A program made the position numbers and the translations under genes. A model generated the notes under the pieces. That model did not search any database, had not been told where the DNA came from, and was given only the letters and a program-made list of their open reading frames with translations. Below are positions 30,349 through 35,515 of a stretch of 43,652 nucleotides of DNA, piece by piece (position 1 is the first letter of the stretch; every line of letters begins with the position of its first letter). This stretch comes from a virus (lineage: Duplodnaviria; Heunggongvirae; Uroviricota; Caudoviricetes), in the IMG/VR virus record IMGVR_UViG_2617270938_000005, positions 1 to 43,652 of that record; one strand, 5' to 3'.

Positions 30349-31244
30349 AGATCCACCCCGTAAATCCAGTCTGTGTTTGTCAGGTCGAGTTTTGGTTTGC
30401 TTGCTGTCACGACTGCCTGTTGCTTGTTACGGTTGATTTCGAGCTGGGTCCACTTGTCGCGGAGTTTGGCCGGACTCAGCACGTTACCGGACCAGAAGTT
30501 GTCCTGGCAGGCCCAGCGGAAAAGCACACACATATCGCGGTGGTTACGTCCGTCACGTTCACGCATCAGGCGGATATCGTTAGCCCACCCAGCAAAATTC
30601 GGTTTTCTGGCTGATGGCGCGATGGTCTTCACCATGTCAAACATCCACTCTGCGGCGGTCAGGTCTTCTGCTGTTCCCCACTTGCTGCCGCTCTGAATTG
30701 CAGCATCCGGTTTAACCACAGAAAGATCGTTTTCTGGCTGGTCAGAGGATTCGCCAGAATTCTCGGACGAATAATCTTTTCTTTTTTCTTTTGTAATAGT
30801 GTCTTTTGTGTCCCCCTGTTTTGAGGGATAGCAATCCCCCAATTTGAGGGATGTTTTATCCCTCGTTTTAGGGGATTTTCCCTCGTTTTGAGGGATACAC
30901 CATTCTGAGATGTTTTTATTTGGTCCAAACATGCCGCCTTGCTGCTTGATAATATTCATTCTGACGAGTTCTAACTTGGCTTCATTGCACCGTTTGACAG
31001 GTAACTTTGTAATCTCGCTAAGTTGAGAATCGGTGATTCTGTCCATTGGTTTATTCCACCCATAGGTTTTACGCAGAATGGCAAGCAGCACTTTAAACTG
31101 TCGCTTGGTCAGATCTGCGCCCGAATAAGCCTCAAGCAGCATATTTGATAGTCTGGCGTAACCATCATCGAGATCTGCCACATTACGCTCCTGTCCGGCA
31201 AAGTTACCTCTGCCGAAGTTGAGTATTTTTGCTGTATTTGTCAT
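30345..31244 (-). CDS. O: replication initiator O
   Basis: Near-identical to lambda O; contains ori iterons. Confidence 0.95.
   Translation of the reverse strand: MTNTAKILNFGRGNFAGQERNVADLDDGYARLSNMLLEAYSGADLTKRQFKVLLAILRKTYGWNKPMDRITDSQLSEITKLPVKRCNEAKLELVRMNIIKQQGGMFGPNKNISEWCIPQNEGKSPKTRDKTSLKLGDCYPSKQGDTKDTITKEKRKDYSSENSGESSDQPENDLSVVKPDAAIQSGSKWGTAEDLTAAEWMFDMVKTIAPSARKPNFAGWANDIRLMRERDGRNHRDMCVLFRWACQDNFWSGNVLSPAKLRDKWTQLEINRNKQQAVVTASKPKLDLTNTDWIYGVDL
30770..30900. repeat. ori-lambda: four iterons (TCCCTCAAAACGAGGGA-like) plus AT-rich region inside O
   Basis: Plus strand CCCTGTTTTGAGGGATA, CCCCCAATTTGAGGGAT, ATCCCTCGTTTTAGGGGAT, CCCTCGTTTTGAGGGATA adjacent to T-rich tract. Confidence 0.85.
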
Positions 31245-31276
31245 AATGACTCCTGTGGATTGATCCAGTAATTCCC

Positions 31277-31573
31277 TCAGAATTGCATATCAATTTGCTT
31301 AGAGTCCCCGGCGGCCACCGGGGATTTTTTCTTTGTGATTCCATCAAGCGCATACTTAAAAGCCCTACTAATCGGACTGATGTCTGATGCCATTCCGAAA
31401 GCACACAAGACTGAAGCAATAAATCTCCAGTCCGTTCTGCTTATCTTCGATTCATGACAGCCAATCATCTTTGCCAGACCGCGCTGAGTAAGCGTTGACA
31501 GGTTGATAAGTAAATCTGTTTCTGCGCGATCAACGTCGCGCTGTGATAGTTTGCTGTAACTTGTTCGTTCCAT
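31277..31573 (-). CDS. cII: transcriptional activator CII
   Basis: C-terminus KKKSPVAAGDSKQIDMQF resembles lambda CII KKRPAATERSEQIQMEF; position after cro/nutR. Confidence 0.8.
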   Translation of the reverse strand: MERTSYSKLSQRDVDRAETDLLINLSTLTQRGLAKMIGCHESKISRTDWRFIASVLCAFGMASDISPISRAFKYALDGITKKKSPVAAGDSKQIDMQF

Positions 31574-31676
31574 TTCTTAAGATTTCCAATAGTGAATAGC
31601 TAGTTGAAAGGTATACGTGGAAACGCATATGGCCTTAGTTGGTCAGATATCTTTGAACTCGCTTTTCAGCGACGTA

Positions 31677-31703
31677 GGACGAATGTCCGTTGTTACAAAG
31701 AGC
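31677..31703 (-). promoter_or_regulatory. nutR (boxA GCTCTTTGTAACAACG plus boxB hairpin GGAC-AUUC-GUCC)
   Basis: Between cro stop and cII; matches nutL arrangement at 34344-34371. Confidence 0.55.
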
Positions 31704-31714
31704 GGCTCCGCTTA

Positions 31715-31930
31715 TTAAGCGGCTTTGTGTTCCGGCGGGAACACGTCATCAAGACTTACTTTTGCGCCTAACTTATTTAGGCACGCAACAAGAGCACGGC
31801 ATGTTTTAAGGTCTGGGAAGCGACGACCAGATTCCCAATGTCCGATAGCTCCCTGTGTGCATCCAACTGCCTTAGCAAGTGTTGTTTGAGAGATATTCAG
31901 TGACTCTCGATATTTTCGTAGGTTGCTCAT
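31715..31930 (-). CDS. cro: Cro repressor (HTH)
   Basis: 71-aa HTH protein divergent from cI; start at MSNLRKYRESL with GGAGGG RBS. Confidence 0.8.
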   Translation of the reverse strand: MSNLRKYRESLNISQTTLAKAVGCTQGAIGHWESGRRFPDLKTCRALVACLNKLGAKVSLDDVFPPEHKAA

Positions 31931-32040
31931 ATGCCCTCCATAGTAACCTCGAATAAAAAATACAATATGTACTTTCCAAATACAAGCAAAAATACACATT
32001 GTGCATGGATGGTTCCAGTACAGAGCGTAATAATAAGGAC
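31931..32040. promoter_or_regulatory. oR/pR/pRM region with TACAnnnnTGT-type operator repeats
   Basis: Repeats tacaatatgtact (31961-31973) and tacacattgtg (31993-32003); related sites in oL; candidate pR TTGTAT-17-TATTTT on minus strand. Confidence 0.5.
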
Positions 32041-32700
32041 ATGAAAATGAAATGGTATGAACTGGCTAGATCCAGAATGAAAGAGCTCGGCATAACTCAA
32101 GAGAAGTTAGCCGAAGAGCTAGGTATGACGCAGGGTGGGATTGGACACTGGTTGCGCGGATCTCGTCATCCATCTCTTAGTGATATTGGTGTGGTGTTTA
32201 AATACCTTGGTATTGATAACATATCATTCAACCACGACGGGACATTTTCACCTGTTGGCGAATACTCATCGGCCCCAGTTAAAAAACAATATGAGTACCC
32301 TGTATTTTCTCATGTTCAGGCTGGGATGTTCTCTCCAGAACTCAGAACCTTTACCAAAGGCGATGCGGAGAGATTGGTAAGCACAACCAAAAAAGCCAGT
32401 GACTCTGCATTCTGGCTTGAGGTTGAAGGTAACTCAATGACCGCACCAACAGGTTCCAAACCCAGTTTTCCTGACGGGATGTTAATTCTGGTTGACCCTG
32501 AGCAAGCTGTTGAGCCCGGCGATTTCTGCATAGCCAGACTTGGTGGTGATGAATTTACCTTCAAGAAACTGATCAGGGATAGCGGTCAGGTGTTTCTACA
32601 GCCACTAAACCCACAATACCCAATAATCCCATGCAATGAGAGTTGTTCCGTTGTGGGGAAAGTTATCGCTAGTCAGTGGCCTGAAGAGACGTTTGGGTGA
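32041..32700 (+). CDS. cI: CI repressor (HTH_XRE plus S24 LexA-like peptidase domain)
   Basis: N-terminal HTH; AG cleavage site; GNSM ... FKKL Ser/Lys dyad. Confidence 0.9.
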
Positions 32701-32746
32701 CAAGAAGCACAGGTATTAACAATAACTTTCATGGTGATACGAATCA

Positions 32747-33289
32747 GTGGCTAAAAAAGGCGACTTTAAGCCTACCCAGAAAGAGGTTGACCAAGCTATT
32801 ACTCGCTTGAAAAAAGTAACTTTTAGCGGAGTTACATGGACCGGAAGTGAGGGACGAACCCCAATCTGGTTTAAATTGGATCTCAAAGCTTTTGATGAAA
32901 TTGGCAACCCAATCACAGGCATAAGATTTATGCTTCACTGGCGTCCTCCTATCGTTGAAGGGGTGGATATAGTGAAGATTTCATTTGTGATGTTTCTTCA
33001 TGACAGGCGCATTTACGCGCTTGATCCGTACCCTGCGGATAACAAGCCACACCGTAATAAATCTATAGTGAACCATCCAGATTTTGTTGAGGTGGCTCGA
33101 GGTCCTCACTATCACATGTACTTCGAATCAGCTGGGGAAGAAATTGCACTTAAGCTTGAAACGAACATCAAGCCAGATGATTTTTTTGGCTACTGGAATT
33201 ATTTTTGCGAGGCGCTTAATATCATATATGAAGGCAGCCCACCTTTACCTAATCAAGATAAATCAGGTCAGTTATCATGGGAAATGTAA
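32747..33289 (+). CDS. hypothetical protein A of cI-linked two-gene cassette (rexA position)
   Basis: 180-aa ORF with GTG start 46 nt after cI stop; no recognisable family; overlaps downstream ORF by 13 nt. Confidence 0.5.
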   Translation: MAKKGDFKPTQKEVDQAITRLKKVTFSGVTWTGSEGRTPIWFKLDLKAFDEIGNPITGIRFMLHWRPPIVEGVDIVKISFVMFLHDRRIYALDPYPADNKPHRNKSIVNHPDFVEVARGPHYHMYFESAGEEIALKLETNIKPDDFFGYWNYFCEALNIIYEGSPPLPNQDKSGQLSWEM

Positions 33290-34053
33290 CGTGTTCAACA
33301 GTCATATCTAAGCTCGGGTTTGAATGCCACCCAATGAGCGACACGTTGCTGCGCGTTATTAGTCCATTCACATACTACGATGATTGTGAGCAGATAAGTG
33401 TATTCGTTCAAGAGATGAGTGGTCAGTATAGGGTTACAGACTACTGCGATACATTGATGAATATTGAATCACGCGGCATCCACCTGACTAAAAAGAAAAT
33501 TGATCTGATCAGGTCATCACTCGCTTCGCAAGGAATTTCATTAAATGACTCTGGAGAGATATCTGCGTGGGCAGATGAGTCGTCCGTTGGACAGGTAACT
33601 GCAAATGTTATTCGTGGTGGGATTCTTGCATCCGCCCAAACTGCTGATTGGTATGCTGAGGTCAAAGACGATAAGTTCGAAAAATGTGTAATCAGTTACT
33701 TAAAATCAGCAGGGCTTGGGAAGCGACTAGTCTTAAAGGAAAAAGTGAAAGGTATTAGTGGGCATAACATTACTGTTCCGTTAACGCTAAGGAATGAGTC
33801 TCGACTAATACCACCAAAACGCGGGTTTACGGTAAGCCTTGCCAGCAGTAAGGGATGGAATACTGCCCACTCAACAGTTGGGAAGATTGTTGACTTAAGT
33901 CAGGTCGTTCCTGACATAAACAATAGATTTGTAATAGTTGACAGCGATGGGTTAACACCTGAGCTACAGCAACTATCATTACTATTTAATGATACCGCAC
34001 GAGTGTTGCCATTCCATACCAGAGACTCTTGGATTGAGTCTCTGGTAGCCTAG
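33277..34053 (+). CDS. hypothetical protein B of cI-linked two-gene cassette (rexB position)
   Basis: 258-aa ORF (alternative start at Met 33334); followed directly by terminator; no recognisable family. Confidence 0.5.
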   Translation: MGNVTCSTVISKLGFECHPMSDTLLRVISPFTYYDDCEQISVFVQEMSGQYRVTDYCDTLMNIESRGIHLTKKKIDLIRSSLASQGISLNDSGEISAWADESSVGQVTANVIRGGILASAQTADWYAEVKDDKFEKCVISYLKSAGLGKRLVLKEKVKGISGHNITVPLTLRNESRLIPPKRGFTVSLASSKGWNTAHSTVGKIVDLSQVVPDINNRFVIVDSDGLTPELQQLSLLFNDTARVLPFHTRDSWIESLVA

Positions 34054-34083
34054 AAAAACCCGGCCTCAGCGCCGGGTTTTCTT
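34054..34083 (+). terminator. rho-independent terminator closing the cI operon (timm-like)
   Basis: CCCGGC-CTCAGC-GCCGGG hairpin followed by TTTTCTTTG. Confidence 0.75.
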
Positions 34084-34224
34084 TGCCTCACCCCCCACCT
34101 AAAGACACATAACCAAATGTATTTATTGAAAAATAAATAGATACAACTCACTAAACCACGCAATTCTGATCTCTCCTTACATCGCCGAGGCGATACACCC
34201 ACGCTAAAAAACAACACTATTAAA

Positions 34225-34297
34225 TACAAAGTGTTATAAAAAATCACCCCATTTTAGAACAAATCGTATTGACCCAATAAAGTACATATCGTACTAT
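34225..34297 (+). promoter_or_regulatory. oL/pL: TTGACC-17-TACTAT promoter with overlapping palindromic operator AGTAC-ATATC-GTACT
   Basis: -35 at 34269-34274, -10 at 34292-34297; operator 34281-34295 and tacaaagtgtta at 34225-34236. Confidence 0.6.
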
Positions 34298-34343
34298 TTA
34301 ACCGTCAGCAGGACGCTGGAAGCCAAACGGAACAGACTGGCAG

Positions 34344-34371
34344 GCTCTTTAAACAACGTCGAACTCTCGAC
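34344..34371 (+). promoter_or_regulatory. nutL (boxA GCTCTTTAAACAACG plus boxB hairpin GTCGA-ACTC-TCGAC)
   Basis: Between pL and N; parallels nutR. Confidence 0.55.
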
Positions 34372-34487
34372 TACGTGGCTGAAAAGCCAGATCACCCAAC
34401 CACATGAGCTGTGGGATGCAATGCCGAAGCAACCGTCTCAGGAGGAGCTTCGAGATTGCATCACCAAAGTTTATTCGGGAGGAATCT

Positions 34488-34760
34488 ATGTCCAGAAAAA
34501 CAGAATTTAAAGGCACCTCAGCTTCTCGTCGTAGAGCTCGTCGCGCAAACCTGCAAAGTCAGGAGGCGATTAGCTCCGACAAGCTACACAGACCAACCCC
34601 CTCTCGAGTGGTCTTGCAATGCAAGCGCAAACCAGCAATGAGAGCAGAAGTAATAACACTGACAACGTTGACCAGAAAATATGAAGGCTCAACTTGTCTT
34701 CCAAATGTAGCTCTTTACGCGGCAGGCTACAGGAAATCAAAACAACTGACAGCAAGGTGA
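34488..34760 (+). CDS. N: antitermination protein N (P22 gp24-like)
   Basis: Arg-rich motif SRRRARRANLQ; C-terminus LPNVALYAAGYRKSKQLTAR matches P22 gp24 LPGVALYAAGHRKSKQITAR; GGGAGG RBS. Confidence 0.8.
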   Translation: MSRKTEFKGTSASRRRARRANLQSQEAISSDKLHRPTPSRVVLQCKRKPAMRAEVITLTTLTRKYEGSTCLPNVALYAAGYRKSKQLTAR

Positions 34761-34818
34761 CTTGTGTTGGTCGCCAGAAAACGAAGGGCAAATCCATCGC
34801 ATTAATCTGAGGTGGCCC

Positions 34819-34983
34819 ATGAAGAACAGCATCAAGTGCCCGGTATGCGGTCGTGACTTCGATCCACGCACTCCGGTCTGCCACATCAGCAAGTATCACC
34901 AGTCAGCGAAGAACTGCGAGCTGGAGAAGATACGCGATGCCCGGCGGCAATATTTCAAAGTAACAGCGAGTGAGGTTCGGTGA
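34819..34983 (+). CDS. small zinc-ribbon protein
   Basis: 54 aa with CPVCG...C..H motif. Confidence 0.35.
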   Translation: MKNSIKCPVCGRDFDPRTPVCHISKYHQSAKNCELEKIRDARRQYFKVTASEVR

Positions 34984-35321
34984 TGGAAAATAAAACGGCT
35001 AACGGGATGTACGTACTGCGTGGTGAGCTGAAAAAGGGACTGATAGCGGAGCTGGTAAAGGCATACGACCAGCTGACTCAGGAGTCAGAAAAATTAAAGA
35101 TCCTCGGACTCAGGTATAACACCCCTCGACGCATTGTTTATGGCTTTATGTATGAGGTTGCAGCATTAACCGTCAAGGAAATTATGTTTAAAACTGAGGG
35201 TGGCTTTTACATCCCACAGGATGACTTCGAATCGAGCGACGATATCGATTCATTAGCCAAAGAGATCATCGATGTAATTGACTGTAATGGCGCATTCCTT
35301 GAGCGCCTTCTTAAGGAGTAG
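34983..35321 (+). CDS. hypothetical protein
   Basis: 112-aa ORF, TGATG start/stop overlap. Confidence 0.35.
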   Translation: MENKTANGMYVLRGELKKGLIAELVKAYDQLTQESEKLKILGLRYNTPRRIVYGFMYEVAALTVKEIMFKTEGGFYIPQDDFESSDDIDSLAKEIIDVIDCNGAFLERLLKE

Positions 35322-35323
35322 CC

Positions 35324-35515
35324 ATGAAAAAACTGTATGAAAAACTCCCGGTCGTAGTGCAGGGGTCATTTTGGGTCTGCTTATCACTGCGGCCATTCTT
35401 CTGTCTACCCCGCCAGTCGTCATGTTTCTTCGTTGGTGGTTCAGAGTTTGGGGTGTCTGATCGGCGCAAGCATTACGCACAGAACGAATCGAGCGGGTCG
35501 AGTGGCCTGCGGTGA
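35324..35515 (+). CDS. small hypothetical protein
   Basis: 63-aa ORF with AAGGAG RBS. Confidence 0.35.
   Translation: MKKLYEKLPVVVQGSFWVCLSLRPFFCLPRQSSCFFVGGSEFGVSDRRKHYAQNESSGSSGLR

What the first reader, a model, noticed from the sequence alone, without database searches (positions are those of the whole stretch)
32747..34083. Uncharacterised two-gene operon in the rexAB slot, co-transcribed with cI and closed by a terminator before pL
Directly downstream of cI on the same strand are two overlapping ORFs (180 aa with GTG start, then 258 aa; 13-nt overlap ATGGGAAATGTAA), then a strong terminator (34054-34083), then pL/oL and nutL. This is the architecture of lambda cI-rexA-rexB-timm-pL, meaning the pair would be expressed from pRM in the lysogen. 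Neither protein resembles RexA/RexB, SieB or any family I recognise, and neither has obvious transmembrane segments. The segment looks AT-richer than the flanking cI gene, consistent with a horizontally acquired cargo module. The rex position is a known slot for prophage-encoded exclusion and defence genes, so this is the best candidate for a previously undescribed lysogen-protective system.
Basis: partly seen in the sequence, partly recalled or inferred. Interest (0 to 1): 0.85.

Follow-up and report, generated by a model that had tools for sequence, protein, structure and literature searches.

The report
Repressor-linked two-gene prophage cargo cassette
Two overlapping, strongly conserved genes of unknown function sit right after the prophage repressor, where phage lambda keeps rexAB; they are a good but untested candidate for a lysogen-protecting anti-phage system, and distant copies in other bacteria look like ordinary inherited chromosomal genes.

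Summary
In detail: cI, ORF A (32747-33289, GTG start, 180 aa), ORF B (33277-34053, 258 aa, 13-nt overlap), a strong terminator, then pL/oL, nutL and N. Both ORFs are real genes (pN 0.05-0.19 against pS 0.6-0.85).

A and B overlap in 91 of 92 enterobacterial loci, downstream of at least nine unrelated repressor types. The same order recurs in temperate phages of Pseudomonas, Burkholderia and Helicobacter. About 5.6% of complete E. coli genomes carry one of two alleles, including Nissle 1917 and O104:H4. The same cI allele is followed by other cargo in other phages.

One caveat: in Achromobacter and Bordetella the pair sits at a fixed site beside dapA and yciO and diverges like those genes. Defence is the best-supported reading (about 0.45) and is unproven.

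The parts
31715..31930 (-). cro-like HTH repressor gene, divergent from cI
   Evidence: HTH_3 at E 9e-12; annotated at the equivalent position in NZ_CM128549
31931..32004 (.). cro-cI intergenic region (oR/pRM/pR equivalent); holds ATATGTACTTT at 31965-31975, the reverse complement of the operator-like site inside pL
   Evidence: shared 11-mer between the two control regions; promoter function is inferred
32005..32700 (+). cI-type repressor (HTH_3 plus Peptidase_S24), identical to WP_001302016.1
   Evidence: Pfam E 3e-28 and 2e-10; RefSeq annotation
32747..33289 (+). Gene A: 180 aa, GTG start, mostly beta, with a conserved R88, D93, H102-x-N104, G-x-H121-x-H123 constellation and a disordered conserved C-terminal tail (S-G-Q)
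33277..34053 (+). Gene B: 258 aa. The N-domain (about 1-122) is DUF1828 with a type III secretion chaperone / DUF2170-like fold. The C-domain (about 125-258) has a restriction-endonuclease-like alpha-beta-beta-beta-alpha-beta fold with a conserved S161-G162-H163 ... G-K203-x-x-D206
33277..33289 (+). 13-nt A/B overlap ATGGGAAATGTAA, suggesting translational coupling
   Evidence: sequence; an overlap of 13 or 4 nt in 91 of 92 related loci
34052..34086 (+). Intrinsic terminator closing the cI-A-B unit (equivalent of lambda timm)
   Evidence: -21.1 kcal/mol, z -4.6; conserved with alternative stems in related loci
34269..34297 (+). pL-like promoter TTGACC-17-TACTAT with the operator-like AAAGTACATAT (34279-34289) between the hexamers
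   Evidence: function is inferred
34344..34371 (+). nutL-like site: boxA-like GCTCTTTAA followed by a boxB-like hairpin GTCGAACTCTCGAC
   Evidence: assignment by resemblance to the lambda nut sites
34488..34760 (+). Antitermination protein N
   Evidence: PF25694 at E 7.6e-32; RefSeq annotation

Best explanation
A and B form an obligate, translationally coupled two-gene accessory cassette. It sits in the repressor-to-pL slot and is read through from the repressor promoter, so it is made in the lysogen. It is a remote enterobacterial branch of the DUF6978/DUF1828 pair that PADLOC lists as the untested candidate defence system PDC-M24.

The most likely function is a two-component anti-phage (exclusion or abortive-infection type) module. 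In this model B couples a chaperone-like protein- or peptide-binding domain to a divergent restriction-endonuclease-fold effector domain. A is a probable metal-binding beta protein that acts as B's partner, either as regulator or co-effector, and may dock through its conserved disordered C-terminal tail.

Shown: the genes, their coupling, their conserved position, the folds, the remote homology and purifying selection. Inferred: expression from pRM, the A-B interaction, nuclease activity and the anti-phage role.
For: - Architecture: it is identical to lambda cI-rexA-rexB-timm-pL.
- Pairing: A and B are adjacent with overlapping stop and start in 91 of 92 enterobacterial loci. They are paired in all 26 betaproteobacterial loci with enough downstream sequence and in 3 of 3 other phages.
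- Position: the cassette follows at least nine unrelated repressor types, seven S24-type and two short repressors, one of them with HTH_3. The same order occurs in phages of Pseudomonas, Burkholderia and Helicobacter.
- Terminator: a hairpin follows B in nearly all of the related loci.
- Slot turnover: the same cI allele is followed by an NYN-domain protein, by two other unknown proteins or by a 41-51% identical A'B' allele.
- Precedent: the literature places rexAB and bstA in this slot (PMC8585504).
- Candidate-system match: both proteins hit PDC-M24A/B, and the ev017 allele of B matches PDC-M24B over its full length at E 4.7e-10. PDC-M24 was nominated because it occurs embedded in BREX, DISARM or type I RM loci. 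Seven of nine candidates from the same approach that were tested gave protection.
- Selection: purifying selection is strong.
- Prevalence: 61 plus 241 of 5,426 complete E. coli genomes, always on the chromosome and never on plasmids.
Against: - No experiment exists on any member. PDC-M24 is explicitly untested.
- The homology is remote. A scores below Pfam's DUF6978 cut-off, and only 3 of 32 A-family members hit that model.
- B lacks the canonical D...(D/E)xK motif. Family-wide only S161, H163 and D206 are invariant, with G162 and K203 nearly so. Nuclease activity is therefore uncertain.
- In about 23 Achromobacter and Bordetella species the pair sits at one syntenic site next to bamC-dapA-yciO. 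It diverges at housekeeping-like rates: A and B are 64-81% identical against 73-90% for the flanks. That is unlike the patchy turnover typical of defence genes.
- Other betaproteobacterial copies lie among metabolic and housekeeping genes rather than in defence islands or prophages.
- Neither the A-B interaction nor expression from pRM has been tested.
Confidence: 0.45

Rival explanations
1. The pair is a toxin-antitoxin-like or addiction module. One protein is toxic and the other neutralises it, which stabilises the prophage or the chromosomal locus. Any phage exclusion would be a side effect.
For: It is a compact two-gene operon with overlapping stop and start and strict co-occurrence. One partner has a nuclease-like fold and the other a conserved His cluster. 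It is stably retained at one chromosomal site in Alcaligenaceae. B's N-domain resembles chaperone-type binding modules.
Against: There is no match to any known toxin or antitoxin family in Pfam, NCBIfam or PADLOC. Neither protein has a recognisable DNA-binding autoregulatory domain. Both are large for a type II pair. There are no plasmid copies, although addiction modules are common on plasmids.
Confidence: 0.2
2. The pair has a cellular, non-defence role such as nucleic-acid processing, repair or stress handling. Temperate phages picked it up as a lysogenic-conversion cargo.
For: Inheritance is vertical and syntenic, with housekeeping-like divergence next to dapA, bamC and yciO in Achromobacter and Bordetella. 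Other copies lie next to RNase G, an ABC transporter or an ornithine cyclodeaminase gene. Purifying selection is very strong.
Against: The position immediately downstream of unrelated repressors is strikingly conserved in phages of at least four bacterial orders. The cassette alternates with other cargo in a known exclusion-gene slot. Remote relatives are embedded in RM, BREX or DISARM loci. The A family is rare, at 42 clusters among 1.84 billion representatives.
Confidence: 0.2
3. The pair is an accessory of the lysis-lysogeny switch. It would modulate repressor stability, induction or superinfection immunity, rather than act against unrelated phages.
For: It is tightly linked to the repressor gene across very different phages. 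In E. coli Nissle 1917 the prophage that carries the A'B' allele contributes to resistance against lambdoid phages, and the authors call the responsible element an unidentified factor (PMC5987069; locus).
Against: It works with at least nine unrelated repressor types, including non-S24 repressors, which argues against a specific repressor partner. The same cI functions with entirely different cargo or without this pair. The chromosomal copies in Betaproteobacteria show no phage or repressor genes among the few neighbouring ORFs that were scanned.
Confidence: 0.1

Closest known systems
PADLOC phage defence candidate PDC-M24 (cassette FAM_00129>>FAM_00065; DUF6978-like plus DUF1828 proteins; Payne et al. 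2024 preprint)
   Same: It is a two-gene cassette in the same order, with a small protein followed by a protein of about 255 aa. Both window proteins hit the corresponding models. The ev017 allele of B matches PDC-M24B end to end.
   Different: The homology is remote: E 4e-4 for A, and only the N-domain of the window's B matches, at E 6e-7. Only a minority of the A family hits PDC-M24A or DUF6978. The context here is the prophage repressor slot, not an RM, BREX or DISARM locus. PDC-M24 itself has never been tested.
Phage lambda rexA-rexB
   Same: Both lie between cI and pL on the cI strand and are closed by a terminator. Both are two genes presumably made in the lysogen (PMC8585504).
   Different: There is no sequence similarity. 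Neither A nor B has a membrane-spanning segment, whereas RexB is described as an ion channel (PMC8585504). The predicted folds are different.
BstA of Salmonella prophage BTP1
   Same: Both are lysogeny-expressed genes immediately downstream of diverse prophage repressors, a synteny conserved across taxa (PMC8585504).
   Different: BstA is a single protein with a DNA-based self-immunity element called aba. No homology to it was found with Pfam or PADLOC. No aba-like element was looked for here.
Restriction-endonuclease-fold (PD-(D/E)xK) effectors of defence systems, such as Can2/Card1, NucC and type II restriction enzymes of the NgoMIV/Cfr10I group
   Different: There is no canonical D...(D/E)xK. 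The conserved residues are S-G-H at the start of the second core strand and G-K-x-x-D in the following helix. The N-domain is chaperone-like, not CARF. No profile-level sequence match to any solved structure was found.

Membership tests
Lambda RexAB | Located between cI and pL, on the cI strand, and closed by a terminator before pL | tested here: met
Lambda RexAB | Sequence homology to RexA and RexB | tested here: not met
   No RexA/RexB hit in Pfam at E<=1, nor in PADLOC, NCBIfam or PHROGs
Lambda RexAB | A membrane-spanning effector (RexB is a multi-pass membrane protein) | tested here: not met
   Highest 19-residue hydropathy is 1.22 for A and 0.79 for B
Lambda RexAB | Exclusion of T4 rII and other phages in the lysogen | not testable with these tools
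   Needs plaque assays
PADLOC PDC-M24 (DUF6978-like plus DUF1828 candidate system) | B component matches the PDC-M24B / DUF1828 models | tested here: met
   DUF1828 at E 2.6e-10, above the cut-off. PDC-M24B at E 6e-7 over the N-domain only. The ev017 allele matches over its full length at E 4.7e-10.
PADLOC PDC-M24 (DUF6978-like plus DUF1828 candidate system) | A component matches the PDC-M24A / DUF6978 models | tested here: inconclusive
   E 4e-4 (PADLOC) and 7e-5 (Pfam; 23.6 bits against a cut-off of 29.6), over the C-terminal third only. 3 of 32 family members hit DUF6978 and up to 6 of 32 hit PDC-M24A.
PADLOC PDC-M24 (DUF6978-like plus DUF1828 candidate system) | Two adjacent co-directional genes, with the A-type gene upstream of the B-type gene | tested here: met
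   the cassette is written FAM_00129>>FAM_00065
PADLOC PDC-M24 (DUF6978-like plus DUF1828 candidate system) | Found embedded in BREX, DISARM or type I RM loci (the basis of its nomination) | tested here: not met
   The context here is a prophage immunity region. Distant copies lie among housekeeping genes.
PADLOC PDC-M24 (DUF6978-like plus DUF1828 candidate system) | Demonstrated anti-phage activity | not testable with these tools
   The authors state that the 145 PDCs are untested
PD-(D/E)xK nuclease superfamily (B C-domain) | Alpha-beta-beta-beta-alpha-beta core fold | tested here: met
PD-(D/E)xK nuclease superfamily (B C-domain) | Catalytic D ... (D/E)xK residues on the second and third core strands | tested here: not met
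   No invariant acidic residue on those strands. The invariant residues are S161, H163 and D206, with G162 and K203 nearly so. K181 is conserved only in Enterobacterales.
Type II toxin-antitoxin systems | Match to a known toxin or antitoxin family, or an antitoxin with a DNA-binding domain | tested here: not met
   No such hits in Pfam, NCBIfam or PADLOC
Type II toxin-antitoxin systems | Toxicity of one partner that is neutralised by the other | not testable with these tools
   Needs expression experiments

The most novel reading that the evidence does not exclude
A-B is a new family of lysogeny-expressed, two-component anti-phage systems. A chaperone-like sensor domain is fused to a restriction-endonuclease-fold effector that has a non-canonical His/Lys/Asp site. 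This effector works with a partner protein whose fold has no solved relative. The pair has been captured repeatedly into the repressor-to-early-left-operon slot of temperate phages across Gamma-, Beta- and Epsilonproteobacteria. It could be the unidentified factor behind the resistance of E. coli Nissle 1917 to lambdoid phages.
Probability: 0.35. Interest if true: 0.7.

Novelty: new variant of a known kind. Interest (0 to 1): 0.55.

Why it matters
The pair would add a mechanistically new member to the small set of exclusion systems known from the lambda rex slot (rexAB, bstA). It would also be the first functional data for a catalogued but untested candidate family (PDC-M24, DUF1828, DUF6978).

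It is experimentally convenient. It is about 1.3 kb, it has a native promoter context, and natural lysogens exist, including the probiotic E. coli Nissle 1917 and outbreak O104:H4 strains. About 5.6% of complete E. coli genomes carry one of the two alleles.

The conserved position after unrelated repressors in phages of four bacterial orders suggests a general rule for finding lysogen-expressed cargo. The vertically inherited Alcaligenaceae copies offer a test of whether such cassettes can become fixed host genes.

Tried and rejected
- Solved structures by sequence: profile searches with four alignments found nothing meaningful. The only hits were a designed repeat protein, FACT SPT16 and a reductoisomerase at E>0.1 or with no valid stretch.
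- Model coordinates: none were accessible, so I could not test whether the conserved residues cluster in space.
- Pfam on the B C-domain alone: no hit even at E<=10, so it is not a recognisable DUF1829.
- NCBIfam: nothing. Rfam over 31000-35500: nothing.
- Literature: searches for DUF1828, DUF6978, PDC-M24 and the protein accessions found no functional study.
- Tai: I had meant to check whether Tai corresponds to this pair. The look-up failed on a term-length error and I did not repeat it.
- Distant A relatives: two alignments were too divergent to give DNA search patterns. A narrower one worked.
- Plasmids: no B homologue.
- Internal promoter for B (like lambda pLit): promoter-like sites in the region are no more frequent than in shuffled sequence, 6 against 6.5 expected, so none is claimed.

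Full report
**Observation.**
- ORF A runs 32747-33289 (GTG start, 180 aa). ORF B runs 33277-34053 (258 aa). Both are on the + strand and overlap by ATGGGAAATGTAA.
- The upstream gene is a cI/LexA-type repressor with HTH_3 and Peptidase_S24 domains. It is divergent from a cro-like gene.
- The downstream gene is an N antiterminator (PF25694, E 8e-32).
- The 46-nt gap between cI and A holds no terminator-like site.
- The hairpin after B folds at -21.1 kcal/mol with a z-score of -4.6.
- A pL-like TTGACC-17-TACTAT lies at 34269-34297. It encloses an operator-like 11-mer whose reverse complement occurs between cro and cI. A boxA-like GCTCTTTAA and a boxB-like hairpin follow.
- The cargo is modestly AT-rich: 43.0% GC, against 46.1% for cI and 49.7% for the window, in the 3rd percentile of same-size windows.
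- Neither protein has a hydrophobic stretch long enough to span a membrane.
- Both ORFs are under strong purifying selection, with pN 0.05-0.19 against pS 0.6-0.85 in comparisons with diverged alleles.

**What the proteins are.**
- B carries DUF1828 at its N-terminus, E 2.6e-10, above Pfam's cut-off.
- A weakly matches DUF6978, E 7e-5, below the cut-off.
- Both belong to PHROG families of unknown function, 2017 and 1960.
- Both hit the two components of a single PADLOC entry, PDC-M24A at E 4e-4 and PDC-M24B at E 6e-7. A diverged allele of B from phage ev017 matches PDC-M24B from end to end at E 4.7e-10.
- PDC-M24 is one of 145 'phage defence candidates' that Payne et al. nominated because the cassette occurs embedded in BREX, DISARM or type I RM loci. 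The authors state that these candidates are untested.
- The link to that family is remote for A. Only 3 of 32 members of the A family hit DUF6978, and up to 6 hit PDC-M24A.
- The A family is rare: 42 clusters at 50% identity among 1.84 billion representatives.

**Structure.**
- A gives a confident model (pLDDT 87, pTM 0.83). It is mostly beta and its last ten residues are disordered.
- Across relatives down to about 20% identity, W31, R88, H121, H123 and F153 are invariant. K22, D93, H102, N104, P168 and Q175 are nearly so. This His/Asp cluster suggests a metal site, which is an inference.
- A's tail (P-x-P ... S-G-Q) is conserved in most but not all branches.
- B (pLDDT 82, pTM 0.53) has two domains.
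- The canonical D...(D/E)xK is absent. The family-wide invariants are S161, H163 and D206, with G162 and K203 nearly invariant.
- These residues lie where the catalytic Asp and, in the NgoMIV/Cfr10I group, a helix-borne acidic residue normally sit. That comparison rests on my own knowledge and I did not test it. Whether the domain cuts nucleic acid is open.

**Distribution and context.**
- The exact cargo is in 61 of 5,426 complete E. coli genomes, including O104:H4 outbreak strains.
- A second allele, 41% identical in A and 51% in B, occupies the same place after the same cI in phages ev017, ev207, PhiR57_1 and PhiR63_2.
- That second allele is in 241 of 5,426 complete E. coli genomes, including Nissle 1917 and the type strain.
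- In 92 enterobacterial loci every B has an A beside it. In 91 of them A and B overlap by 13 or 4 nt, and the remaining copy is disrupted.
- The nearest upstream gene falls into eleven sequence clusters. Seven are unrelated S24-type repressors and two are short repressors, one of which has HTH_3. In the last two clusters one extra gene lies between the repressor and A.
- A terminator follows B in nearly all of 39 distinct downstream sequences, with different stems.
- The same order, repressor then zero or one gene then A then B, recurs in Pseudomonas phage phPA-G, Burkholderia phage phi644-2 and a Helicobacter pametensis prophage. In phPA-G the A gene is unannotated.
- There are no plasmid copies.

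**The slot.** The same cI allele (96-98% DNA identity) is followed in other phages by:
- an NYN-domain protein (2B8, E212);
- a 283-aa unknown protein (2G7b);
- a 173-aa unknown protein (Stx2a phages);
- or the A'B' allele.

Owen et al. 2021 describe the cI-N interval as a hotspot of mosaic diversity that houses rexAB and bstA. They note that the repressor promoter is among the most active in a lysogen (PMC8585504).

**A complication.**
- A pattern-limited scan of one genome per species found A-B pairs in 26 betaproteobacterial loci.
- In about 23 Achromobacter and Bordetella species the pair lies at one syntenic site next to bamC, dapA and a yciO/Sua5-family gene.
- Between the two genera A and B are 64-81% identical, against 73-90% for the flanking genes.
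- This pattern is vertical inheritance under purifying selection. It is not that of a mobile cassette.
- In Accumulibacter and Paraburkholderia the neighbours are metabolic or housekeeping genes.
- The downstream flank in Alcaligenaceae is variable, so the pair may sit at the edge of a variable region. The pair itself is conserved.

**How it most likely works.** Shown: A and B are two translationally coupled genes. They form an obligate pair over very large evolutionary distances, and temperate phages place them where they should be transcribed together with the repressor. B combines a chaperone-like domain with a nuclease-fold domain.

Inferred:
- The pair is expressed in the lysogen.
- A and B form a complex, possibly with A's tail held by B's chaperone-like domain.
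- Infection by another phage releases or activates an effector activity, most plausibly nucleic-acid cleavage by B or a metal-dependent activity of A.

I put the anti-phage reading at about 0.45. The rivals are a toxin-antitoxin-like stabilising module (0.2), a cellular function carried as lysogenic-conversion cargo (0.2) and an accessory of the lysis-lysogeny switch (0.1).

Circumstantially, Bury et al. 2018 found that genes of the Nissle 1917 prophage that carries A'B' are upregulated on phage exposure. One cloned regulator only partly reproduced the strain's resistance, and the authors left an 'unidentified factor' in that prophage. A'B' was not examined (PMC5987069; locus).

**Comparison and novelty.**
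- The pair works like the rexAB and bstA class by position only. It is not a member of either.
- It is a remote relative of the untested candidate PDC-M24.
- B's C-domain belongs to the restriction-endonuclease fold but fails the catalytic-motif test.
- The finding is therefore a new variant of a known kind, lysogen-expressed cargo in a known hotspot. It is built from catalogued but uncharacterised protein families, one of which has a fold with no solved relative.
- It is a well-defined and easily testable candidate, not a demonstrated system.

Noticed in passing
L099-L121 (for example L099:7980-9277): Distant A-B pairs in about 23 Achromobacter and Bordetella species sit at one syntenic chromosomal site next to bamC-dapA-yciO. 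They diverge at housekeeping-like rates, and the downstream flank is variable.
   Followed up: partly
L012:1429-2286, L013:1401-2252, L014:1804-2325: The same cI allele is followed by other cargo in other phages: an NYN-domain protein with a weak HEC-09 / NYN PADLOC hit (2B8, E212), a 283-aa unknown protein (2G7b) and a 173-aa unknown protein (Stx2a phages).
   Followed up: partly
L123:2920-3504: An A-family ORF (E 4.5e-30 to the family profile) is unannotated in Pseudomonas phage VB_PaD_phPA-G. It lies between a 216-aa hypothetical protein and the B-like gene, downstream of the CI-like repressor.
   Followed up: yes
L126:5009-6315 (E. coli Nissle 1917, NZ_CP022686.1 4789150-4790456): The defective lambdoid prophage of Nissle 1917 next to icd carries the same cI protein plus the ev017-type A'B' allele. 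A 2018 study attributed part of the strain's resistance to lambda and Stx phages to this prophage, without identifying the full factor.
   Followed up: partly
L058:2588-3896: This is the only one of 92 loci where the pair looks degraded: A is truncated and a 289-nt gap precedes a shortened B. It is probably a pseudogenised copy.
   Followed up: no
L061:383-724 and L010:3895-4377: Some prophages stack an extra gene between the repressor and A. One is a DUF3024 protein of 113 aa. In Yersinia it is a 160-aa protein with a hydrophobic N-terminal stretch.
   Followed up: partly
window 1-24000: The left half of the window is about 94% identical to temperate Klebsiella phages such as P18-100 and ST11-VIM1phi8.3. 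The immunity region matches E. coli lambda-like and Stx phages, so the element is a cross-genus mosaic.
   Followed up: no
window 33240-33286 (A residues 166-180): The last 15 residues of A (P-L-P-N-Q-x-x-S-G-Q-L-S-W-E-M) are almost invariant in sequences that are otherwise only 60% identical. A G-Q-x-x-L tail persists in most relatives at 20% identity. This is more than the 13-nt overlap with B would require.
   Followed up: partly
window 34288-34510: RefSeq annotates a frameshifted small hypothetical ORF just upstream of and overlapping the start of N, across nutL. The longest ORF in the N frame (34404-34760) would extend N by 28 residues.
   Followed up: no
supplementary file 8 of 10.1101/2024.01.29.577857: The B-type family of PDC-M24 (FAM_00065) is also listed with a second partner family (FAM_01408, 15 instances). 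It also appears in a three-gene variant. B-type proteins may therefore pair with more than one kind of A.
   Followed up: no
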